Shown here piece by piece: positions 1,323-59,787 of a stretch of 60,137 nt of DNA (the first letter of the stretch is position 1; the number at the start of each line of letters is the position of its first letter). Source of the DNA: an uncultured Verrucomicrobia subdivision 3 bacterium (GTDB lineage: Bacteria > Verrucomicrobiota > Verrucomicrobiia > Limisphaerales > UBA11358); assembly GCA_903833055.1 (NCBI GenBank), contig CAILDU010000048.1, positions 1 through 60,137 of the forward strand, written 5' to 3'. The notes under the pieces were generated by a model that made no database searches, had not been told where the DNA came from, and saw nothing but the letters and a program-made list of their open reading frames with translations. The position numbers and the translations under genes are program-made.

Positions 1323-1535
1323 ATGAATCCTCAAGTTGTCACATTTAGACCAACCGGAAAAAACACGAATCGCGTTTTACTCGCGAAAACATTGGGCATT
1401 AATATGTCCGAAGTGATGAATGAACTAATGGAGAAGTATGGCGACGCCGAACTAAAGAAGCGGACTGCTCAACTGCAAAAGCAAATGGAGCGAGCGAAGG
1501 GATTTGAACCCTCGACGTTCACGTTGGCAACGTGA
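1323..1535 (+). CDS. small putative ribbon-helix-helix-like protein whose 3' end runs into the tRNA-Gly gene
   Basis: 70-aa ORF with a strand-helix-helix pattern (VVTFRP / TNRVLLAKTLG / MSEVMNELMEKYG). The last 50 nt overlap the antisense strand of the tRNA 3' half. Confidence 0.4.
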   Translation: MNPQVVTFRPTGKNTNRVLLAKTLGINMSEVMNELMEKYGDAELKKRTAQLQKQMERAKGFEPSTFTLAT

Positions 1536-1561
1536 TGCTCTACCAACTGAGCTACGCTCGC
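1486..1561 (-). tRNA. tRNA-Gly (anticodon GCC)
   Basis: 76-nt cloverleaf. Acceptor GCGAGCG/CGCTCGC, D-stem GCTC/GAGC, anticodon stem TCACG/CGTGA with loop TTGCCAA, T-loop TTCAAAT, and an encoded 3' CCA. Confidence 0.93.
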
Positions 1562-3930: not shown

Positions 3931-5433
3931 TTGCTAACCATGAAATCTTCCAAGCAAACTCTCTCGCCGCATTGGAACCGCCGCAATTTTCTTAAGTCCG
4001 CCACGCTCGCTAGCGGTGCGGTCGTGTTCGGAGTTCCGACGCTACTGCGCGGTGCGAACCTGAACAGCAAATTGAACATCGCGAGCATCGGCGCGATGGG
4101 CAAAGGCCAGACCGATACTGACCATTGCGCCTCCGAGAACATCGTGGCGTTGTGCGACGTGGACTCAGCCCGCTGCGCCCCCCAGCTGAAGAAGTATCCG
4201 AGCGCAAAATTTTACCAGGATTTCCGCAAGATGTTTGATGAGATGGGCAAGGGCATTGACGCCGTGACCGTTTCCACGCCGGATCATTTCCACGCCATCG
4301 CGGAATCAGCCGCGATGCAATTGGGCAAACATGTCTATGGCCAGAAGCCGCTGACGCAGACGATTTATGAGGCGCGCTATCTGCGAGACCTTGCGCACAA
4401 AACTGGTGTTGTCACGCAGATGGGCAACCAAGGCAGCGCAGCGGATGGTCTGCGGCGTGCGGTGGAATGTGTTCACGCGGGCATCATCGGCCAGGTGCGA
4501 GAAGTTTATGTCTGGACCAACCGCCCGGTCTGGCCACAAGGCATGGACCGACCCGATGGCAGCGATCCGGTGCCGGAAACTTTGGACTGGGACATCTGGC
4601 TTGGACCCGCGCCGGTGCGGCCTTACAAAAAAGGCATTTATAATCCGTTCAATTGGCGTGGCTGGCAGGATTTCGGCACGGGCGCGCTTGGCGACATGGC
4701 GTGCCACACGGTGAACATGCCGTTCCGCTCGCTCGGGCTTGGCTACCCGACGGAAATTGAGGGAACCGCGCTCACGGGTATGAATAAAGAAACGTATCCG
4801 CTGGGCTCAAAAATTCGTTTTGAATTTCCCGCCCGAAAAATTTCCGTGCCCGCCGCGCATAAAAACTTTTTCCACCGGCACGACACGCTGGCTTTTAATC
4901 CGGTCACGCTGTGGTGGCTGGACGGCGGCCAGCCGGATGCGAAAGCGCCGAACGGCCACGATTTTAGCAACAAACCGCCGCGTGAATTGACCGCTGACAT
5001 TGAGGAGATGCTTGGCGAAGTTCCGAAAAGCGCCTGCCTGCTCATCGGCGACAAAGGCAAAATCTTTTCGCCGGACGATTACGGTGAACAATTTTTCATC
5101 CGGCTCAACGACGAAAAAAAATACCGGCATTACAAAAAGCACGAGGCCATCGCCGCGATTCCCGAATCCATCCCGCGCAATCCGCACAAGGGCGACAACG
5201 ACCATCGCCAACATCTCGAATGGATTGCGGCCATCAAGGCCGGAAAGCCGGACATGTGCTACTCGAAATTTTCCGTCGGCGCGCAACTTACGGAAATCAT
5301 GCTGCTCGGCTGCGTCGCCTTGCGCGCGGGGCAGAAGATTGAATGGGACGGCCCGAATATGCGCGCCACCAACTGCCCGGAGGCTGCACAGTTCGTCAAA
5401 CGCGAAAATCGCTCCGGCTGGGTTTTGTCGTAA
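3931..5433 (+). CDS. Gfo/Idh/MocA-family oxidoreductase with a twin-arginine signal
   Basis: Tat motif NRRNFLKSATLASGA, Rossmann block LNIASIGAMGKG, and TPDHFH..A..A...GKHVY.QKPL typical of the family. Confidence 0.9.
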   Translation: MLTMKSSKQTLSPHWNRRNFLKSATLASGAVVFGVPTLLRGANLNSKLNIASIGAMGKGQTDTDHCASENIVALCDVDSARCAPQLKKYPSAKFYQDFRKMFDEMGKGIDAVTVSTPDHFHAIAESAAMQLGKHVYGQKPLTQTIYEARYLRDLAHKTGVVTQMGNQGSAADGLRRAVECVHAGIIGQVREVYVWTNRPVWPQGMDRPDGSDPVPETLDWDIWLGPAPVRPYKKGIYNPFNWRGWQDFGTGALGDMACHTVNMPFRSLGLGYPTEIEGTALTGMNKETYPLGSKIRFEFPARKISVPAAHKNFFHRHDTLAFNPVTLWWLDGGQPDAKAPNGHDFSNKPPRELTADIEEMLGEVPKSACLLIGDKGKIFSPDDYGEQFFIRLNDEKKYRHYKKHEAIAAIPESIPRNPHKGDNDHRQHLEWIAAIKAGKPDMCYSKFSVGAQLTEIMLLGCVALRAGQKIEWDGPNMRATNCPEAAQFVKRENRSGWVLS

Positions 5434-53842: not shown

Positions 53843-54937
53843 TTACCGCACCACACGCGCGCCGCCGCCGCCGAAAGTTTTTTCCACTTCCTTGCGGGTG
53901 GCCATGCTGGTGTCACCGGGTGTCGTGGAAGCGAGCGCGCCGTGCGCTGCGCCATATTCCACGGCCTTCTGCGCGTCGTTGAATTCGAGGAAACCAAATT
54001 GCAATCCGCTTGCGAAACTATCGCCGCCGCCAACGCGATCGAGAATTTCGAGGCCCGGATACTGGCGGCTTTCATGGAACTTGCCGTCGTGCCAGAGAAT
54101 CGCGCTCCAGTCATTCTTCGTCGCGGTGATGACGTGACGCAGCGTGGTCGCAGCGACCTTGAAGTTCGGAAATTCTTTCACGGCCGTTTCAATCATCGTT
54201 TTGAAGGCATCCGTTTCGATATGCTTGAGATCTTCCGCGCCTTTGACGGCGAAGCCGAGTGACGCGGTGAAATCCTCTTCGTTGCCGATCATCACGTCCA
54301 CATACTTCGCGATTTCGCGATTCACTTCCTGCGCCTTCTTCAGGCCGCCGATGGTTTTCCAGAGCGAGGGGCGATAGTTCAAATCGTAGCTGACAATCGT
54401 GCCGTGTTTCTTGGCGGCTTTGACGGCCTCAACGGTCAGTTCAGCCGTGGAAGCGGAGAGCGCCGCGTAGATGCCACCGGTGTGAAACCAGCGCACGCCG
54501 ACCTTGCCAAAGATGTGATCCCAATCAATGTCGCCGGGTTTGAGCTGCGAGGCGGCGGTGTTGCCACGATCAGGATTGCCGACCGCGCCGCGAATGCCGA
54601 AGCCGCGTTCAGTAAAATTCAAACCGTTGCGGACGGTGCGGCCAATGCCGTCATCTTCTCGCCACTTGATGAAGTCCGTGCAGACGCCGCCTTGCATGAT
54701 GAAGTCCTCGACCAAATGGCCGATTTCGTTGTCCACGAACGCGGTGACGACGGCCGTTTTGTAGCCGAAACATTTGCGCAAGCCGCGCGAGGTGTTGTAT
54801 TCGCCGCCGCCTTCCCAGACTTGGAAATTGCGCGCAGTGCGGATGCGGCCTTCGCCGGGGTCAAGGCGCAGCATGACTTCGCCGAGCGAGATCTGGTCGT
54901 ATTTACAGGTGGATTTGTCGCGTAATTGAATTGCCAT
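53843..54937 (-). CDS. kdgK: PfkB-family sugar kinase, 2-dehydro-3-deoxygluconokinase-like
   Basis: Start at 54937 (MAIQLRDKSTCKYDQISLGEVMLRLDPG). The C-terminal motif is RVGGGDSFASG..FG, and the gene lies in a hexuronate cluster. Confidence 0.85.
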   Translation of the reverse strand: MAIQLRDKSTCKYDQISLGEVMLRLDPGEGRIRTARNFQVWEGGGEYNTSRGLRKCFGYKTAVVTAFVDNEIGHLVEDFIMQGGVCTDFIKWREDDGIGRTVRNGLNFTERGFGIRGAVGNPDRGNTAASQLKPGDIDWDHIFGKVGVRWFHTGGIYAALSASTAELTVEAVKAAKKHGTIVSYDLNYRPSLWKTIGGLKKAQEVNREIAKYVDVMIGNEEDFTASLGFAVKGAEDLKHIETDAFKTMIETAVKEFPNFKVAATTLRHVITATKNDWSAILWHDGKFHESRQYPGLEILDRVGGGDSFASGLQFGFLEFNDAQKAVEYGAAHGALASTTPGDTSMATRKEVEKTFGGGGARVVR

Positions 54938-55083
54938 AAAGTTTCCAGATTCTAATGAAAAAACGTGAACGAACTCAAACACAATGATTCGCGCAAAATG
55001 TTCAACGCCGAATGTTGCCGCCCGATGAATGAAACCGCGAACCACGCCAAACTCGCGAACGCTTTTCAACGCAAAGATTTTGA

Positions 55084-55110
55084 CACGAATTGCACGAATT
55101 AACGCGAATT
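55084..55110. repeat. three ~10-nt-spaced direct repeats CACGAATT / CACGAATT / CGCGAATT
   Basis: Read directly. They lie immediately upstream of the left inverted-repeat element. Confidence 0.6.
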
Positions 55111-55114
55111 CAAA

Positions 55115-55240
55115 TACGCTGAAGGCGTAACGGAAATTAGCCTAGGGTTGTGAGGAACGAACTACCCTAGGAAAACGTCCCACAAAATAATTCTCCCTCT
55201 CCTCGCCGAACGAGGAGAGGGCCGGGGTGAGGAGTCGAAA
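55115..55240. repeat. left copy of a ~125-bp structured repeat element (two internal hairpins)
   Basis: It is the reverse complement of 58504-58630. Internal hairpins are CCTAGGGT..ACCCTAGG (55141-55171) and CCCTCTCCTCG-CCGAA-CGAGGAGAGGG (55195-55221). Confidence 0.9.
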
Positions 55241-55278
55241 GCGTTGCGGCGACCTCCAGATTTCGACATCATTCCGAA

Positions 55279-58200
55279 ATGCAATCGGCTGACATCATCT
55301 GCAAATGTGAGTCGTGGGAAAATTTCCAGCGACTTGCTTCGCAGTTAGGTGAAAAAGAGAAGGGCGACATATTTGAACGCCTCGTCCAGCTTTACCTCCA
55401 ACTCGAACCGATTTACTTCGCCCAAATCAAAAACGTCTGGCTGCTTGCAGAAGTCCCGCTTGAAATTCATACAAAATTAAATCTCCCAGAGCCGGACAAA
55501 GGCATTGACCTTATTGCTGAAACACACAAGTCGGAATTTTGGGCAATTCAAGCAAAGTATCGCGATGACCAGAAGGCTTCGATTCCTTGGGATGAGCTTT
55601 CGACTTTTACCGGTTTAGCTTTTGGTGTCTGTCGAAACATCAGCTTTGGCCTAATTTGTTCGACGACCGAGCACATCACGCAAGTTCTTCAAAACAACGA
55701 GCGCATCGGTTTCTGCACAATTGAAACGTGGGCGCATCTTGGCGGTGATTTCTTTCGCCGGGCGCAGGCAAAAATGCTGCACCATGCCGCCGCGCTTGAG
55801 CCGTATCAGCCGCGCGGCCACCAGATGTCTGCCATTGCCGCCGCCAAGGATCATTTCGCCACCAAATTGTCATCGCGTGGCAAGCTCATCATGCCATGCG
55901 CGTCCGGCAAAAGTCTCACCGCTTACTGGATTGCCGAAGATTTGAAAGCGACTTGGATTTTGGTTGCCGTCCCCAGCCTTGCGCTCATTAAACAGACGCT
56001 TTCTGTCTGGATGCGTGAATTTGTGGCGAGTGATGTTCAACCGGATTGGCTCTGCGTTTGCAGCGATGCCTCCGCTGGCGAAGTGGATCACGACGATCTC
56101 GTCACCTATGCACACGATTTAGGCGTGCCCTGCCTGACCGATGCTGATGGCATCGCTGACAAACTCCGAAATTTTTCCGCAGCTCGGCGCGTGGTTTTCA
56201 CTACTTACCAAAGTGGCGAAGTTCTGGCGCTCGCGGCTCGCAAGGCCGGTGTCATTTTTGATTTTGGCGTCATGGATGAGGCGCACAAAACCACCGGACG
56301 TAGAGATGGGATGTTTGCCTTTTTGCTCTTCGACGAAAATTTGCGGGTTAAGCAAAGGCTGTTCATGACGGCCACCGAACGCCGTTTCATTGGCAGTTCA
56401 AACCAAATCGCCAGCATGGAAGACCCGGAAATTTACGGGGAAACTTTTCATTCCATGAGCTTCAAGGCGGCGTTGGAATGCCAGCCGCCGATTTTGAGCG
56501 ACTACCAAATCATCACCATTGGCGTGCGTGAATCAGAAGTCGCGCGGCTGGTCAGCAGCAACAGCTACGTCAAACCTGACACCGGCAAATGGTCGGTCGT
56601 GACGGCCCAAACTTTCGCGGGGATGGTGGCATTGCAAAAGGCCGTTCAACAATACGGCATCCGCCATGCCGTCTCATTTCACAGCAGCATCGCCCGCGCG
56701 AGCCAGTTCAAACATCTGTTCGACCAACTTTCTGCTGTGAACGGCAATGGCAAAATCACGTCGTTTCATGTTTCCGGAAAAATGACGACCAGTGCCCGAG
56801 ATTCCCAAATCCGCGCGTTTCTCGCCGCATCGCCCAGCCTGCTCACGAATTCCAAATGCCTCACCGAAGGCGTGGACGTGCCGGAGATTGATTGCGTGAT
56901 GTTCGCCGATCCGAAGACGAGCAAGATAGGCATCGTGCAGGCGTGCGGACGTGCGTTGCGCCTGTCGGATGGCAAAACGCAAGGCTACATCATCGTGCCG
57001 TGCGTCGTCAGTGACGGCGCAACCGTTGAACAAGTCCGGCAAAGCGTCGCCTTCCAATTTGTCCTCGACGTGATTTGCGCGCTGGCGGCACAGGACGAAC
57101 GCATCATCGAAGAATTTCGCGCGGTATCGCAGGGCAAGCAATTCGGCTCGCGGCCAATCGTTTCGTTTAATCTGACGGAAGTAATCGCCGAAAATATCAA
57201 CACCGATAATTTTGTCCGCGCCATCGAGTTGGAATGTTGGAACAAACTCGCGCGTCTGGCATGGAGGCCATTTGAAGATGCCCGCAAATTTGCTCGGTCG
57301 CTTGAATTACATGACATTGAAGAATGGCTTGCTTGGACACGCGGCAAAATTCCAAACAAGCCGAAACGGCCGCTAGATATTCCCATTGCACCAGCAACTG
57401 TTTACCCAAAGGAATGGGAAGGATGGCGAGATTGGATGGGGACAGAAATGTTGTCATTTGAGGAAGCGCGTAAATTTGCGCGGAGTTTGGGTTTGCGGAC
57501 TCAAAGACAATGGCGGGATTATAGCAGCGGCAGGAGAACTGAATTACCTCTAAAGCCAGATGGTATTCCTTCTTCGCCAGAACGTGTATATGCCAAAGAT
57601 GGTTGGCTCGGTTATGGCGATTGGTTGGATACCGGCAATATCTCACCCACAAACAAGCGTGCGCGTAATTTTAATGCTGCAAGAGAATTCGCCCGCACGC
57701 TGGACCTGAAATCTCCCGCCGAATGGGATCTATATTGCGATGGTAAAATGGTAGGGAAGCCAGAGCGCCCGATTGATATTCCTAAGAAGGTTCAGCGCGC
57801 ATATAAAGAAAAGGGTTGGATTGGCTGGGGAGATTGGTTGGGTTGCGAGTGGGTGGAACTGCCACCGCGTGAAGTAAAGGCTCGTAAAAGACAGTTTCTA
57901 AAATACGAAGATGCACGTCAGGTTGCGCGAACACTTGGCGTAAAAACCAGCTTGGTATGGTTGAAATTTACAAAGGGAGAAATGAAACAACTTGGAGATT
58001 TTCCCCCAAACATTCCACGAAATCCTGCAAACTACTATGGAAAAGAATTTCTCGGCTGGGGTGATTTTCTGGGGACTGGTCAATTATCACCGTCAAACCG
58101 TCGAAAGCAATTCTTGCCATTTGAAAAGGCGCGATCATTTGCCAGAAATCTCGGCCTCAAGTCTTCAGTTGAATGGCATAACTACCGCGCTGGAAATATG

Positions 58201-58503
58201 CCGGATAAGGGCAAGCTACCAGATAACATTCCTTGGGGACCAAAAGAATCCTATCGCGATAAGTGGGTGAGTTGGCAAGACTGGCTCGGATCGTCAGACA
58301 AGCAGAGCCGGTGGCGAACATTCGAGCAGGCGCGCACATGGGCGCGAACGCTTGGCCTGCGAACCGCCCGCGAATGGTTTGCGTATTGCGACGGCAAAAT
58401 GCCCGACAAGCCACCACGCCCGTCCGACATTCCCAAAGATATTTACGGCGCATACGAGAAAAAAGGCTGGCAGGGAATCCACGACTGGCTCGGCGTTGCT
58501 TGA
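55279..58503 (+). CDS. PD-(D/E)xK nuclease-like N-terminal domain + SF2 (DEAH) helicase + six C-terminal ~65-70-aa tandem repeats
   Basis: Nuclease-like GIDLIAE...FWAIQAKYR. Helicase motifs PCASGKS (I), MDEAH (II), MTAT (III) and QACGRALR (VI). The repeat unit is F.EAR.FAR.LGLK...W..Y...........P..IP..P...Y...GW.GWGDWLG. Confidence 0.9.
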   Translation: MQSADIICKCESWENFQRLASQLGEKEKGDIFERLVQLYLQLEPIYFAQIKNVWLLAEVPLEIHTKLNLPEPDKGIDLIAETHKSEFWAIQAKYRDDQKASIPWDELSTFTGLAFGVCRNISFGLICSTTEHITQVLQNNERIGFCTIETWAHLGGDFFRRAQAKMLHHAAALEPYQPRGHQMSAIAAAKDHFATKLSSRGKLIMPCASGKSLTAYWIAEDLKATWILVAVPSLALIKQTLSVWMREFVASDVQPDWLCVCSDASAGEVDHDDLVTYAHDLGVPCLTDADGIADKLRNFSAARRVVFTTYQSGEVLALAARKAGVIFDFGVMDEAHKTTGRRDGMFAFLLFDENLRVKQRLFMTATERRFIGSSNQIASMEDPEIYGETFHSMSFKAALECQPPILSDYQIITIGVRESEVARLVSSNSYVKPDTGKWSVVTAQTFAGMVALQKAVQQYGIRHAVSFHSSIARASQFKHLFDQLSAVNGNGKITSFHVSGKMTTSARDSQIRAFLAASPSLLTNSKCLTEGVDVPEIDCVMFADPKTSKIGIVQACGRALRLSDGKTQGYIIVPCVVSDGATVEQVRQSVAFQFVLDVICALAAQDERIIEEFRAVSQGKQFGSRPIVSFNLTEVIAENINTDNFVRAIELECWNKLARLAWRPFEDARKFARSLELHDIEEWLAWTRGKIPNKPKRPLDIPIAPATVYPKEWEGWRDWMGTEMLSFEEARKFARSLGLRTQRQWRDYSSGRRTELPLKPDGIPSSPERVYAKDGWLGYGDWLDTGNISPTNKRARNFNAAREFARTLDLKSPAEWDLYCDGKMVGKPERPIDIPKKVQRAYKEKGWIGWGDWLGCEWVELPPREVKARKRQFLKYEDARQVARTLGVKTSLVWLKFTKGEMKQLGDFPPNIPRNPANYYGKEFLGWGDFLGTGQLSPSNRRKQFLPFEKARSFARNLGLKSSVEWHNYRAGNMPDKGKLPDNIPWGPKESYRDKWVSWQDWLGSSDKQSRWRTFEQARTWARTLGLRTAREWFAYCDGKMPDKPPRPSDIPKDIYGAYEKKGWQGIHDWLGVA

Positions 58504-58630
58504 TTTCGACTCCTCACCCCGGCCCTCTCCTCGTTCGGCGAGGAGAGGGAGAATTATTTTGTGGGACGATTTCCTAGGGTAGTCGCTTCGCTCCAACCCT
58601 AGGCTAATTTCCGTAGCGCCTTCAGCGCAT
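58504..58630. repeat. right (inverted) copy of the ~125-bp structured repeat element
   Basis: It starts the nucleotide after the helicase TGA. The first 65 nt are identical to the reverse complement of 55176-55240. The remainder is similar, and the differences fall mainly in one hairpin loop. Confidence 0.9.
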
Positions 58631-58659
58631 AAAAAACAGCCTCCATTTCTGGAGGCTGT
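58631..58659 (-). terminator. rho-independent terminator for the minus-strand gene 58703..59395
   Basis: ACAGCCTCCA-TTTC-TGGAGGCTGT. On the minus strand the stem is followed by TTTTTT. Confidence 0.65.
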
Positions 58660-58702
58660 CACGTTTTCTGGTTTTGATTTATTGCCCGCCGTGGCTCACG
58701 GC

Positions 58703-59395
58703 TTACGGATGCGGGGTCGCGGGCGGCGGCGTGGGCGGGGTCGGGCTGGCGTGGCTCGCGGTGGTGTCCACGATGATGCGCGCGTTTTCGTAATTGCTCA
58801 CGAAGGTCGCGTTGGTGATCTGGCCGGTCAGGTCGTCCATGATTCCCAAATCCACGTCGGCAGCGTCAAACTCGGCTTGGAGATTTCCAGTGACAGTTTT
58901 GCCAGCGGCGCGGGTGTCGCGCGGTTTGCTGATGAGAAGATTGTAAGCGGCAATCGCATTCGTCAACGCGGTCAGCTTGGCGGCGGTCACGCCGTAGGGG
59001 GCAAGGTTGACGATGTTCGTGTTCGCGGTGGTGTAGATGTTCTGGCAGTTGTCGCGGGATTGCACGTCGCGTCCACCCATCAAATCGCTCATGGAAAAAT
59101 CCACGGACGTTGCGAGCGTGTTGTTCTTGGTTTTCACGGCGTAGGCGTGAACGGCGTTTGCGATTGGCAACGCGGCGGCGCACATGGCCTGTCGCGCAGC
59201 CTGTTTGTCCTGTGCCACGCCGCTGGTGTCCTGCGCCTGACTTTGGGAAAAAGTCTGGATGTTGGTGACGTGGGTTTTCAGGTCGGTATAAGCATCGGCA
59301 AACGCGGTCAGCGATTGCCAAGCGGTCGGAGTGCCATCGCAGATTCCCTCGACGGCCAGATACATGGTGAGCTTGTTTAGCTGTTTAGTGTTCAT
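58703..59395 (-). CDS. hypothetical alpha-helical protein with a Pro/Thr-rich tail
   Basis: The likely start is MNTKQLNKLTMYLAVEG at 59395. About 230 aa with no family recognised, ending SPTPPTPPPATPHP. Confidence 0.65.
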   Translation of the reverse strand: MNTKQLNKLTMYLAVEGICDGTPTAWQSLTAFADAYTDLKTHVTNIQTFSQSQAQDTSGVAQDKQAARQAMCAAALPIANAVHAYAVKTKNNTLATSVDFSMSDLMGGRDVQSRDNCQNIYTTANTNIVNLAPYGVTAAKLTALTNAIAAYNLLISKPRDTRAAGKTVTGNLQAEFDAADVDLGIMDDLTGQITNATFVSNYENARIIVDTTASHASPTPPTPPPATPHP

Positions 59396-59454
59396 ATATT
59401 TTATGCCTTTCTTGCGGGGTTCGATTATTAGAACCGTCGAAAGGGGGGAAATGT

Positions 59455-59787
59455 TCAAAAATAGTCGAAAATCGAGGAAATATGAGGTTTCAGGCGTCCC
59501 AAATGACCCGGCAGACAGGCCAAGTCTGTCGCCAGACGTGCCATAGATGCCGGAAGTGGCGACATTTGAGCAGCACGACAGGCCAGATGAATCGGCAGAC
59601 GCGCCAAGTGACCTGACAGAGACGCCAAATGCTCCAGCAGACTCGTCAGAGAAGCCGGAAGATTGACCAAATGGATTGGCAGACAGGCCAGAGACGCTGG
59701 CAGTTTGACCAGACGAGACGGCAGTTGCGTTATTTCTGGCGGCAGAAAGGCCAGTTGAATTTCAAACCTGCACCGATTTGAATTCAC
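59455..59787 (-). CDS. hypothetical protein built of ~12 xxLxxLP heptads
   Basis: 110-aa ORF running through the 21-nt repeat array. Variation among units concentrates at codon third positions and at Leu first positions, which is a coding-like pattern. Confidence 0.5.
   Translation of the reverse strand: MNSNRCRFEIQLAFLPPEITQLPSRLVKLPASLACLPIHLVNLPASLTSLLEHLASLSGHLARLPIHLACRAAQMSPLPASMARLATDLACLPGHLGRLKPHISSIFDYF
59510..59761. repeat. twelve tandem, strictly in-register degenerate 21-nt repeats (plus-strand consensus GGCAGAC.GGCCA...)
   Basis: Units start at 59510, 59531, 59552 and so on up to 59741, with no indels. G1, A4, G5, C12 and A13 are nearly invariant. Confidence 0.9.

What the first reader, a model, noticed from the sequence alone, without database searches (positions are those of the whole stretch)
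55115..58630. Nuclease-helicase gene bracketed exactly by ~125-bp inverted repeats
The sequence at 55115-55240 and the reverse complement of 58504-58630 are clearly the same element. The 65 nt nearest the gene are identical; the remainder has a handful of substitutions, mostly inside one hairpin loop. The right copy starts on the first nucleotide after the helicase stop codon, and the left copy ends 38 nt before the start codon.

Each copy contains two hairpins whose stems are conserved while one loop has diverged. This points to selection on structure.

Three consequences follow.
- A transcript starting upstream of the left copy could pair its 5' and 3' ends over more than 100 nt, giving an RNase III substrate or a closed mRNA.
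- The DNA could form a 3.3-kb stem-loop or cruciform, or undergo inversion.
- The unit could be a mobilisable or recombination-bounded cassette.

I see no transposase and no target-site duplication. The GGAGAGGG/CCTAGGG hairpin motifs look like a dispersed REP/MITE-like family, so the pairing could be coincidental placement of two copies.
Basis: seen in the sequence. Interest (0 to 1): 0.65.

Follow-up and report, generated by a model that had tools for sequence, protein, structure and literature searches.

The report
Inverted-repeat-bounded defence gene cassette
The two 127-base inverted repeats are the arms of a recurrent kind of gene cassette in Verrucomicrobia: copies of a structured repeat (the orphan "Acido-Lenti-1" motif plus a terminator-like hairpin) face each other around swappable, mostly anti-phage genes.

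Summary
Arms 55114-55240 and 58504-58630 are 127 nt and 91% complementary. The inner 65 nt are identical. They bracket one 1074-aa Mrr-nuclease/SF2-helicase gene.

It is not a chance pair of REP copies. The window and 61 kb of syntenic DNA from relatives hold no other copy. Among 30 metagenome contigs with two or more arms, 27 adjacent pairs face inward, none face outward, and 5 are direct.

Each arm has three hairpins:
- an inner GC hairpin with a T-tract, terminator-like and facing outward;
- two outer hairpins matching Rfam Acido-Lenti-1 (30.5 and 29.0 bits, below the cut-off of 37). Corresponding arms of orthologous cassettes pass it at 48 bits.

Stems covary in 10 of 14 pairs.

Cargo differs between cassettes and is mostly defence genes or fragments. 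No transposase or recombinase was found among the 43 cargo ORFs scanned. The same helicase sits at three or more chromosomal sites with different arm variants, and one site holds three different cargos. In relatives, ldh_2 and kdgK are 21 nt apart; here 4.8 kb lies between them.

How cassettes move is not shown. I favour recombination at the arms, with in-trans transposition as the main rival.

The parts
55114..55240 (-). Left (5'-side) arm, read inner to outer on the - strand. Inner hairpin hpX is at 55195-55221, the linker AGAATTATTTTGTGGGACG follows, hairpin 1 (CCTAGGGT..ACCCTAGG) is at 55141-55171, the linker CTAATTTCCGT follows, and hairpin 2 is at 55115-55129.
   Evidence: The inverted repeat is reported. 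The fold has z -4.2 to -4.3. Rfam RF01687 scores 30.5 bits at 55115-55171 on the - strand. hpX is terminator-like on the - strand.
58504..58630 (+). Right (3'-side) arm. It starts on the base after the stop codon. hpX is at 58523-58549, hairpin 1 at 58573-58603, and hairpin 2 at 58616-58628.
   Evidence: Rfam RF01687 scores 29.0 bits at 58573-58629 on the + strand. hpX followed by AGAATTATTT is terminator-like on the + strand.
55279..58503 (+). Cargo gene of 1074 aa. It has an Mrr_cat_2 nuclease, a ResIII/Helicase_C SF2 motor, and direct DNA repeats (3 copies detected) in its 3' third that encode a repeated C-terminal unit.
   Evidence: Pfam hits are. PADLOC matches the REase/helicase part of type IIG and type I enzymes at 3.5e-86, with no methyltransferase part. 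The identical protein is encoded on at least 6 metagenome contigs.
55030..55113 (-). Outer extension of the left arm, made of short repeat modules (TTTGAATTCGCG, AATTCGTG twice, GTGTCA, GGCGTGGTTCGCGG). The same modules follow the arms of many other cassettes.
   Evidence: L047, L036, L081 and L253 match the window to 55030-55102. The mosaic of outer modules is shown.
58635..58660 (.). GC hairpin with T-runs on both sides, abutting the right arm. It is the likely terminator of the convergent 230-aa gene. The equivalent hairpin follows the same arm type in L047 and L058.
58703..59395 (-). 230-aa ORF with no family match. It lies in the same inserted segment. Its 3' end plus the terminator is also found next to an arm in L047.
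54945..59757. The whole segment that is present here between kdgK (start at 54937, - strand) and ldh_2 (stop near 59762, - strand). It is absent from relatives.
   Evidence: In L126 and L127, ldh_2 and kdgK are 21 nt apart. The gap is 128 nt in L125 and 443 nt between the called genes in L124.

Best explanation
SHOWN: The locus is one member of a family of inverted-repeat-bounded gene cassettes in Verrucomicrobiota.
- Each arm is one copy of a three-hairpin repeat. It has an inner GC hairpin followed by a T-rich tract that looks like an intrinsic terminator pointing out of the cassette. Outside that are the two hairpins and conserved CTAAT linker of the Acido-Lenti-1 motif.
- Two arms face each other head to head around variable cargo. 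Here the cargo is a nuclease-helicase related to the restriction/translocase half of type I/IIG enzymes.
- The cassette lies in 4.8 kb that interrupts an otherwise adjacent ldh_2-kdgK pair.

INFERRED: Arms act as portable recombination sites. Cargo is exchanged between arm-bearing sites by recombination within the conserved arm sequence, especially at the hairpin/linker junction. This could be ordinary homologous recombination after DNA uptake, or break-induced (homing-like) repair.
- Inverted orientation would protect cargo from deletion by arm-arm recombination.
- The outward terminators would insulate neighbouring genes whichever way the cargo points.
- Empty head-to-head doublets seen in several phyla would be the MITE/REPIN-like form that seeds new sites, moved by an enzyme not yet identified.
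For: Family identity:
- Both window arms hit RF01687.
- The corresponding 3' arms of helicase cassettes L131 and L160, and the 5' arm of L214, pass Rfam's cut-off at 48.2, 48.2 and 40.9 bits.

Structure:
- Three hairpins form on either strand, with z -3.7 to -5.2.
- Across 50 arms, 88% of cells are paired and 10 of 14 pairs change on both sides. None of 500 shuffles reaches this, and slid controls give 24-48%.

Pairs are units:
- 27 inward-facing, 0 outward-facing and 5 direct adjacent pairs.
- Further inward pairs in genome contigs L074, L047, L093 and L081.
- There are no other copies in the window or in relatives' loci.

Cargo is variable and defence-rich. It includes TmtA, a type II REase with Dcm, a type I MTase-S, a Ser/Thr kinase, PDC-M11A, and fragments of DruA, HerA and McrBC. 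No transposase or recombinase family was hit in the 43 cargo ORFs scanned.

Reassortment:
- Helicase orthologues of 70-95% identity are bracketed at other loci: L128 (TerC/P-II context), L131, L132, L160 and L253.
- The L253 gene is 93% identical in DNA to the window's but has different arm variants and sits at another site.
- That aldo-keto-reductase site holds three different cargos in L136, L188 and L253.
- The window and L047 share outer arm parts and flanks but differ in cargo and in the inner hairpin of one arm.

Terminators: the inner hairpin plus T-tract scores terminator-like on both arms, facing outward.

Insertion: relatives have 21 nt between ldh_2 and kdgK.
Against: - No recombination event was observed directly.
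- No clean empty-versus-filled pair was found for the arm-to-arm unit itself. The ldh_2-kdgK gap also contains a 230-aa gene and other repeats.
- The inner 60 nt of the arms are nearly invariant across cassettes from many samples, including unpaired bases. This suggests recognition by a protein rather than homology alone.
- About 18 arms with 3-14 kb of sequence on their inner side have no detectable partner, so pairing is frequent but not obligatory.
- Terminator function rests on a consensus scan only.
- More than half of the metagenome contigs are too short to show a second arm.
Confidence: 0.55

Rival explanations
1. The cassette is a non-autonomous terminal-inverted-repeat transposon: a MITE with passenger genes, or 'mobile insertion cassette'. 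It would move as a whole through a transposase encoded elsewhere. That enzyme could be a DDE type recognising the outer ends, or a Y1 HUH (RAYT/TIRYT-like) enzyme recognising the hairpins as single-stranded DNA.
For: - Arms are head to head like TIRs.
- Cargo-free head-to-head doublets about 110-250 nt apart occur in several phyla: L033, L034, L035, L076, L118, L121 and L123.
- The sequence CCTAGG..CCTAGGCTAAT is conserved across phyla, which suggests protein recognition.
- Many arms continue into ..AATTCGTGTCA. Read from outside this is TGACACGAATT.., a TG..CA-type end with subterminal direct repeats.
- The same helicase is found at three or more sites.
- Published REP/RAYT work reports REP dimers close to stop codons, long TIRs around tyrosine transposase genes, and many REPs in the related Opitutus terrae (PMC3733652).
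Against: - No target-site duplication was seen at any cassette inspected by eye.
- The outer ends are a mosaic of interchangeable modules with no fixed terminus. The window's right arm lacks the AATTCGTG module altogether.
- Inner boundaries are ragged by several bases.
- No transposase family was hit in the 43 cargo ORFs scanned, and none appeared among the 25 Pfam families displayed (of 63) for the rest of the window.
- Cargo and arm variants reassort.
- Several cargos are gene fragments.
Confidence: 0.28
2. The arms work mainly at the RNA level. They would be terminators, stabilisers or processing sites, or would give 5'-3' pairing that makes an RNase III substrate or closed mRNA. On this view the bracket has no role in mobility.
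For: - The hairpins covary.
- The inner hairpin is terminator-like.
- The motif was first described as a candidate RNA (PMC2864571).
- The stop codon abuts the arm in many cassettes, at 0-15 nt.
Against: - This does not explain a second, antisense copy upstream of the gene, the 27:0 orientation bias, or cargo replacement at fixed sites.
- If the inner hairpin terminates, the outer hairpins are hardly transcribed from the cargo promoter.
- C.A mismatches far outnumber G.U in the annotated orientation (49 vs 5, and 38 vs 8 in the published seed). The better-paired strand is therefore the one read inward, which is not the 3' UTR sense strand.
Confidence: 0.1
3. The bracket is either a chance juxtaposition of two independent copies of an abundant intergenic repeat, or a programmed inversion switch.
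For: - The arms do belong to a dispersed family, and solo arms exist.
- Inverted repeats can mediate inversion.
- Cargo is found in either orientation relative to arm subtypes in different loci.
Against: - The window holds only two copies in 60 kb, and relatives' 61 kb hold none.
- The pair orientation is 27:0.
- Bracketing is conserved around helicase orthologues down to 70% identity.
- No invertase is present.
- Inversion would not switch anything, because the promoter-like region and the gene lie between the arms.
- The contigs that span both arms and both outer flanks (L001, L002) have the window's orientation.
Confidence: 0.04

Closest known systems
Acido-Lenti-1 RNA motif (Rfam RF01687; Weinberg et al. 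2010, PMC2864571)
   Same: It has the same two-hairpin core with the conserved stem base CCUAGG/CCCAGG, a CUAAU-type linker and a short GC hairpin with a UUC-type loop. It is multi-copy and often clustered. Arms of orthologous cassettes pass the Rfam cut-off.
   Different: The window's copies have a 15-nt loop where the model has 4 nt, and they score below the cut-off (30.5 and 29.0 vs 37 bits). The published motif was listed as a probable trans-acting sRNA of unknown function. No link to inverted pairs, an upstream third hairpin, or gene cassettes was described.
REP / REPIN / BIME elements and RAYT or TIRYT tyrosine transposases (PMC3733652; PMC3116915)
   Same: These are short structured palindromic units that occur singly, as head-to-head dimers and in mosaics with other motifs. 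They lie close to stop codons, their stems covary, and G-T pairs are tolerated.
   Different: REPINs enclose tens of bases, not genes. The only gene typically bracketed is the RAYT itself. No conserved GTAG or CGTC tag is present here, and no RAYT was seen in the sequence held.
MITEs with passenger genes / mobile insertion cassettes (MICs, e.g. MIC231 of Bacillus cereus; from my own knowledge)
   Same: They consist of inverted terminal repeats around passenger genes, with no transposase inside and many copies with different cargo.
   Different: MIC ends match those of a known IS, and insertions carry target duplications. Neither was found here. These arms are about 127 nt or longer, hold three hairpins, and have mosaic outer ends.
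Integron gene cassettes (attC) and Acinetobacter pdif modules (XerC/D sites; from my own knowledge)
   Same: These are compact, promoter-poor cassettes bounded by structured or paired recombination sites, with interchangeable cargo at fixed platforms. attC sites begin at or near the stop codon and can reach about 120-140 nt. pdif modules are flanked by inverted sites.
   Different: attC sites lie in direct orientation with an integrase and attI nearby. pdif sites are 28-bp Xer sites on plasmids. Here the arms are inverted, no integrase is adjacent, and the loci are chromosomal.
Neisseria Correia elements (from my own knowledge)
   Same: They are about 100-150-nt inverted-repeat elements that can carry terminators or promoters and form RNase III-sensitive hairpins when co-transcribed.
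   Different: Correia elements are themselves the whole unit and do not enclose genes.

Membership tests
Rfam RF01687 Acido-Lenti-1 | Covariance-model score at or above the curated gathering score (37 bits) | tested here: not met
   The window arms score 30.5 and 29.0 bits, with E 1.6e-5 and 4.1e-5 on 201-nt searches. Corresponding arms in L131, L160 and L214 score 48.2, 48.2 and 40.9 bits.
Rfam RF01687 Acido-Lenti-1 | An 8-bp hairpin, a 12-nt linker beginning CUA, and a 5-bp hairpin with a 3-nt loop | tested here: met
   The full model (positions 1-46) aligns in both arms. The only departure is a 15-nt loop in place of 4 nt. Compare the seed alignment.
Rfam RF01687 Acido-Lenti-1 | Covariation supporting both hairpins | tested here: met
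   Across 50 arms, 5 of 8 pairs in hairpin 1 and 5 of 6 pairs in hairpin 2 change on both sides. None of 500 shuffles reaches the observed score.
TIR transposon / MITE / mobile insertion cassette | Terminal inverted repeats bounding the unit | tested here: met
   The arms are 127 nt at 91%. There are 27 inward-facing pairs elsewhere.
TIR transposon / MITE / mobile insertion cassette | Target-site duplication and sharp, conserved outer termini | tested here: not met
   No duplication was seen at the cassettes inspected by eye. The outer ends are mosaics of different modules, and the window's two arms end differently.
TIR transposon / MITE / mobile insertion cassette | A cognate transposase carrying the same ends | tested here: inconclusive
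   None was found among the 43 cargo ORFs scanned, or among the 25 Pfam families displayed (of 63) for the rest of the window. Whole genomes were not available.
REP/REPIN-RAYT system | A conserved GTAG (or CGTC) tag at one end of the palindrome | tested here: not met
   The right arm reads GTAGCGCC.., but the left arm reads GTTACGCC.. and other arms read TTTGCCCC...
REP/REPIN-RAYT system | Inverted doublets as the common form | tested here: met
   Cargo-free head-to-head doublets occur in several phyla, and zero-spacer palindromic forms occur in L068, L069 and L078.
REP/REPIN-RAYT system | A RAYT gene in the same genome, flanked by the repeats | not testable with these tools
   Only the 60-kb window and short loci are held. 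No whole genome of this organism was available.
Integron gene cassette | One attC per cassette in direct orientation, with intI and attI at the array | tested here: not met
   The arms are inverted. No integrase appeared among the Pfam families displayed for the window.
pdif (XerC/D) modules | 28-bp XerC-spacer-XerD sites flanking the module | not tested
   No Xer-site model was run. The resemblance is in architecture only.
Intrinsic (Rho-independent) terminator | A GC-rich hairpin followed by a T-run | tested here: met
   The hairpins at 58523-58549 (+) and 55221-55195 (-) each have 12 pairs followed by AGAATTATTT. This is a consensus match only. Function was not tested.
Type ISP / IIG restriction enzyme (cargo protein) | Mrr-type nuclease and SF2 motor together with a methyltransferase and a target-recognition domain in one chain | tested here: not met
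   The nuclease and helicase parts match (PADLOC 3.5e-86 to model positions 15-643 of 1646). No methyltransferase part is present; the 3' third carries direct DNA repeats encoding a repeated C-terminal unit.

The most novel reading that the evidence does not exclude
The Acido-Lenti-1-type arms and the inner GGAGAGGG hairpin form a previously unrecognised cassette system. It would be comparable in role to integrons, and would capture, insulate and shuffle anti-phage genes in Verrucomicrobiota and possibly other phyla. It would be driven by an enzyme that acts on the folded hairpins. One candidate is the DUF559 (Vsr-like) endonuclease. All four of its genes in the 1.68 Mb held here sit nested between two direct copies of the inner hairpin, next to an arm.
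Probability: 0.2. Interest if true: 0.85.

Novelty: new variant of a known kind. Interest (0 to 1): 0.62.

Why it matters
[quoted passage not shown] It would be the end module of repeat-bounded gene cassettes rather than a free-standing small RNA.

It describes a way in which a little-studied phylum packages and exchanges defence genes without any recognisable transposase or integrase in the cassette.

If the arms mark cassettes reliably, they are a sequence handle for finding new defence genes. Several cargos have no family match.

It also explains why assemblies break at these loci. Two short contigs end inside the arms (L003, L004), and a third (L132) carries matching 28-nt inverted ends from the arms.

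Tried and rejected
Nothing further was found in these searches:
- Other arm copies in the window: none.
- Target-site duplications and sharp termini at about 25 cassettes, by eye: none. The ends are mosaic.
- A larger repeat unit or transposase around the many Saprospira copies: only about 200-nt mosaic repeats.
- Prevotella doublets, compared to define element ends: the other contigs stop inside the element.
- Promoter scan: no sigma-70-like site for the helicase. The only one found serves kdgK, at 54978-54949 on the - strand.
- Tandem repeats in the ldh_2-proximal non-coding stretch: none at threshold.
- Arms at distant helicase homologues of 47-49% identity (L255, L257), and at L130: none. 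Bracketing is therefore not a property of the protein family.
- Literature searches for Acido-Lenti-1, for DUF559 with mobility, and for MITE-flanked defence cassettes: no description of this arrangement.
- A link between Koribacter TIRYT genes (PMC3733652) and the Koribacter Acido-Lenti-1 copies: gene positions estimated from ORF numbers do not coincide with the seed coordinates. This was my own rough estimate and not a test.

One apparent signal was set aside. The higher arm-to-arm identity of the inner part within cassettes is not informative, because that part is nearly invariant across the whole family and was also the search pattern.


Full report
**1.

The repeat finder reports inverted arms at 55114-55240 and 58504-58630, 127 nt long, 91% complementary, and 3263 nt apart. 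A base-by-base comparison finds 11 differences, all in the outer 62 nt, so the inner 65 nt are identical.
- Seven differences lie in the loop of the middle hairpin.
- Two form a compensatory G-C to A-T change in the outer hairpin.

The only long ORF between the arms runs from 55279 to 58503 on the + strand (1074 aa). Its TGA ends at 58503 and the right arm begins at 58504. The left arm ends 38 nt before the ATG. The inner hairpin pattern occurs only at these two places in the window and in none of 100 shuffles. BLAST of the arm against the whole window finds no further copy.

**2. Anatomy of an arm**

Read from the gene outward, each arm contains the following:
- TTTCGACTCCTCACCCCGG;
- an 11-bp GC hairpin, CCCTCTCCTCG-TTCGG-CGAGGAGAGGG, which I call hpX;
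- a T-rich linker, AGAATTATTTTGTGGGACG;
- hairpin 1, CCTAGGGT, a 15-nt loop, then ACCCTAGG;
- the linker CTAATTTCCGT;
- hairpin 2, (A/T)(G/A)CGC-CTTCA-GCG(C/T)A.

Either strand of either arm folds into these three hairpins well beyond shuffled controls. As DNA the z-scores are -3.7 to -4.3. As RNA, including the next hairpin, the z-score is -5.2. The consensus scan scores hpX plus AGAATTATTT as terminator-like on the + strand in the right arm and on the - strand in the left arm. Both therefore point out of the cassette.

**3. The outer two hairpins are the Acido-Lenti-1 motif**

Rfam RF01687 matches 55115-55171 (-) at 30.5 bits and 58573-58629 (+) at 29.0 bits. The whole 46-position model aligns, and the only departure is the longer loop. 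The curated cut-off is 37 bits.

The published seed (Weinberg et al. 2010, PMC2864571) contains near-identical members, such as CCUAGGGCUUACGCCCUAGGCUAAUAAGUAGCGCGCCUACAGCGCU. It also shows that the motif is multi-copy and often in tandem.

Arms in the equivalent position of other cassettes pass the cut-off:

| Locus | Arm | Bits |
|---|---|---|
| L131 (helicase orthologue) | 3' | 48.2 |
| L160 (helicase orthologue) | 3' | 48.2 |
| L214 | 5' | 40.9 |

The window's arms are therefore long-loop variants of that family, not formal members by score.

**4. A dispersed family with a third hairpin**

The hits came from Verrucomicrobiota, Planctomycetota, Acidobacteriota, Bacteroidota, Cyanobacteria, Chlamydiota, Haemophilus and others.

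In many copies across these phyla, a short GC hairpin followed by a T-rich tract precedes hairpin 1. The window's hpX occupies that position. Other Verrucomicrobial arms carry CCACCC-CTTCA-GGGTGG or a GGAGAAGG hairpin there.

On an alignment of 50 distinct Verrucomicrobial arms:
- 88% of cells pair.
- 10 of 14 pairs change on both sides, for example CCTAGGGT/ACCCTAGG, CCCGGCGT/ACACCGGG, CCCAGGGT/ACCCTGGG and CCCGGGGT/ACCCCGGG.
- No shuffle out of 500 reaches the observed values.
- Sliding the partners drops pairing to 24-48%.

**5. Pairs are units, not coincidences**

The organism is an Opitutaceae-like Verrucomicrobium, because kdgK homologues of 87-92% identity are named Rariglobus, Lacunisphaera and Opitutaceae. 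Its 60-kb window holds only these two arms. Four syntenic loci from relatives (61 kb) hold none.

Among the 30 contigs with two or more arms, adjacent arms are inward-facing 27 times, outward-facing never, and direct 5 times. The 27 pairs represent about 25 distinct cassettes.

Independent 3'-end elements would be expected to give outward-facing pairs at convergent genes, and none is seen. Genome contigs L074, L047, L093 and L081 add four more inward pairs.

Pairing is not universal. About 18 arms with 3-14 kb of sequence on their inner side have no detectable partner.

**6. Cargo**

Cargo length runs from about 0 to 5 kb. Where there is one gene, it nearly fills the space. The stop codon lies 0-38 nt from the 3' arm in most cases, and the start codon 8-127 nt from the 5' arm.

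Cargo identified:
- the Mrr-nuclease/SF2-helicase (window, L128, L131, L132, L160, L253);
- TmtA (L249);
- a type II REase with a C-5 methylase (L183);
- a type I methylase with a specificity domain (L081);
- a Ser/Thr kinase with TPR repeats (L239, L176);
- GNAT-PIN / PDC-M11A (L234);
- a large NTPase with a weak nSTAND3 match, below Pfam's cut-off (L173);
- a NOV_C protein (L135);
- DUF2779, phospholipase A1 and an HA-repeat protein;
- several proteins with no match;
- fragments of DruA (L047), HerA (L101), McrBC (L232), and AAA and TPR proteins.

No transposase or recombinase family was hit in the 43 cargo ORFs scanned. The rest of the window is housekeeping, including RNase R, YidC and RNase P.

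**7. Cargo, arms and sites reassort**

Helicase orthologues are bracketed by arms of this family in different contexts:
- L128/L129: 70% identity, between TerC and P-II genes.
- L131: 78% identity.
- L132: 84% identity. The contig carries matching 28-nt inverted ends from the arms.
- L160.

L253/L254 carry a helicase gene that is 93% identical in DNA to the window's over 55354-58499. It sits next to an aldo-keto reductase gene, and its arms have the canonical small hairpin instead of hpX.

That same aldo-keto-reductase site carries other cargos in L136 (a 191-aa ORF) and L188 (an 844-aa ORF), with both outer flanks shared.

The window and L047 share the outer arm parts and about 85-115 nt of flank on both sides. 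They differ in cargo and in the inner hairpin of one arm, and the change-over falls at the conserved linker.

Distant helicase homologues of 47-49% identity, and L130, have no arms. The bracket is therefore a property of the cassette system, not of the protein.

**8. The site in this genome**

In L126 and L127, the ldh_2 stop and the kdgK start are 21 nt apart on one strand. The gap is 128 nt in L125 and 443 nt between the called genes in L124, of which 432 nt have no match in the window and carry a small ORF.

The window has about 4.8 kb there (54945-59757), made up of:
- a 270-nt non-coding stretch;
- a 230-aa ORF with no family match;
- a terminator-like hairpin at 58635-58660;
- the arm-helicase-arm unit;
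- about 175 nt of short repeat modules (AATTCGTG, GGTTCGCG).

A promoter-like site for kdgK (TTGAGT-18-TAGAAT, 54978-54949, - strand) lies inside the inserted DNA.

The site is thus variable among relatives. However, there is no clean empty allele for the arm-to-arm unit alone.

**9. Mechanism: what is shown and what is inferred**

Shown:
- the architecture and its recurrence;
- structural selection on the hairpins;
- variable cargo;
- reassortment of cargo, arms and sites;
- absence of any transposase or recombinase family among the cargo ORFs scanned.

Inferred:
- Arms serve as portable recombination sites.
- Inverted orientation avoids deletion of the cargo.
- The outward terminator-like hairpins insulate neighbouring genes whichever way the cargo lies.

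Arguments for recombination over classical transposition:
- No target duplications were found.
- Outer ends are mosaic and inner ends are ragged.
- Some cargos are gene fragments.
- Arm variants are exchanged around nearly identical cargo.

Arguments for transposition:
- The arms have a TIR-like geometry.
- Cargo-free doublets occur in several phyla.
- The core sequence is conserved across phyla.
- The inner 60 nt are nearly invariant.
- Many arms end in ..AATTCGTGTCA.

I put 0.55 on the recombination-bounded cassette reading and 0.28 on in-trans transposition.

**10.

A transcript pairing its ends over more than 100 nt needs two things: a start upstream of the left arm, and read-through of a terminator-like hairpin. 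The only promoter-like sequence I can see is TTGCGG-17-CATCAT, just before the ATG. A similar sequence is present in L132. This is my reading, and the scan did not report it. It lies inside the bracket.

The contigs that span both arms and both outer flanks (L001, L002) have the window's orientation, so inversion is not evident. Cruciform extrusion cannot be tested here.

**11. Comparison with known systems**

In function, the cassette most resembles mobile insertion cassettes, MITEs with passengers, integron cassettes and pdif modules. The arms themselves most resemble REP/REPIN/BIME elements. It fails defining features of each:
- no target duplication or cognate IS;
- no GTAG/CGTC tag or RAYT seen;
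- arms inverted rather than direct, with no integrase.

I therefore class it as a new variant of a known kind. No paper in the searchable library describes Acido-Lenti-1 as a cassette boundary.

Noticed in passing
L101:490-1054; L139:9051-9696; L162:12941-13586; L211:686-1403: All four DUF559 (Vsr-like endonuclease) genes in the 1.68 Mb of sequence held sit between two direct copies of the inner hairpin hpX, immediately next to an arm. This accounts for at least three of the five direct '(-,-)' arm pairs (L139, L162, L211; L101 is a genome-scan locus outside that tally). The gene is a candidate for a nuclease acting on the arms. It may also be a selfish passenger that targets hpX.
   Followed up: partly
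alignment A1 (50 arms) and the published RF01687 seed: In the orientation annotated by Rfam, C.A mismatches far outnumber G.U pairs: 49 vs 5 in A1, and 38 vs 8 in the seed. The opposite, inward-reading strand therefore forms the better hairpins. The functional strand may be the reverse of the Rfam annotation, or the folded molecule may be single-stranded DNA.
   Followed up: partly
L003 vs window 54419-54719: One metagenome contig differs from the window at 32 positions, all within 300 nt of kdgK (about 10%). It is then identical through the left arm, the whole helicase gene and 65 nt into the right arm, where the contig ends. This is either a recombination tract boundary between strains or a chimeric assembly.
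   Followed up: no
window 57267-58435: The 3' third of the helicase gene carries direct DNA repeats (families D1 and D2, 3 copies each), so the C-terminal part of the protein is a repeated unit ending in a W-G-(D)W-(L/M)-G type motif. Homologues carry precomputed Pfam PF14882 and PF26016 hits there. Its role, possibly DNA or target recognition, is unknown.
   Followed up: no
window 59480-59757 (- strand, just after the ldh_2 stop): This non-coding stretch is rich in CTGCC/GTCTC/CTGGC words with a loose periodicity. Tandem Repeats Finder reports nothing at score 30. It lies upstream of the 230-aa ORF and is absent from relatives.
   Followed up: partly
window 58703-59395 (-); L047:2-140; L058:4632-4683: The 230-aa ORF has no Pfam or PADLOC match and a Pro/Thr-rich C-terminus. 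Its 3' end and terminator recur next to an arm in L047, so it may travel with this type of arm.
   Followed up: no
L194:5970-6086 region; L173:~4075-4160; L093:~4470-4530: Another small element of about 95 nt (..TTGACTCG...CCCAA(A/G)CGGCTCAAGT) is inserted inside the loop of hairpin 2 in L194. It also occurs beside arms in L173 and L093. Arm hairpins seem to be targets for further small insertions.
   Followed up: no
L020:3717-3890; L038, L053, L094 (Haemophilus); Saprospira loci L006-L108: In other phyla the motif forms tandem arrays (period 64 nt in a Planctomycetota MAG, 111-124 nt in Haemophilus). It is very abundant in Saprospira grandis as about 200-nt mosaic repeats. In Parachlamydiaceae, pairs are tail to tail (L027, L075), the opposite of the Verrucomicrobial arrangement.
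   Followed up: partly
L124:963-2456: In the closest relative (kdgK 97% identical), a large serine recombinase gene lies about 570 nt upstream of ldh_2. The neighbourhood may therefore be a general integration region.
   Followed up: no
window 1486-1561 (-): This is a tRNA-Gly(GCC) gene. It is the only Rfam match above threshold in the window.
   Followed up: yes
L003, L004, L132 contig ends: L003 ends 65 nt and L004 30 nt inside the arms. L132 carries matching 28-nt inverted ends from the arms. The inverted repeat breaks short-read assemblies, which will hide such cassettes from many MAGs.
   Followed up: yes
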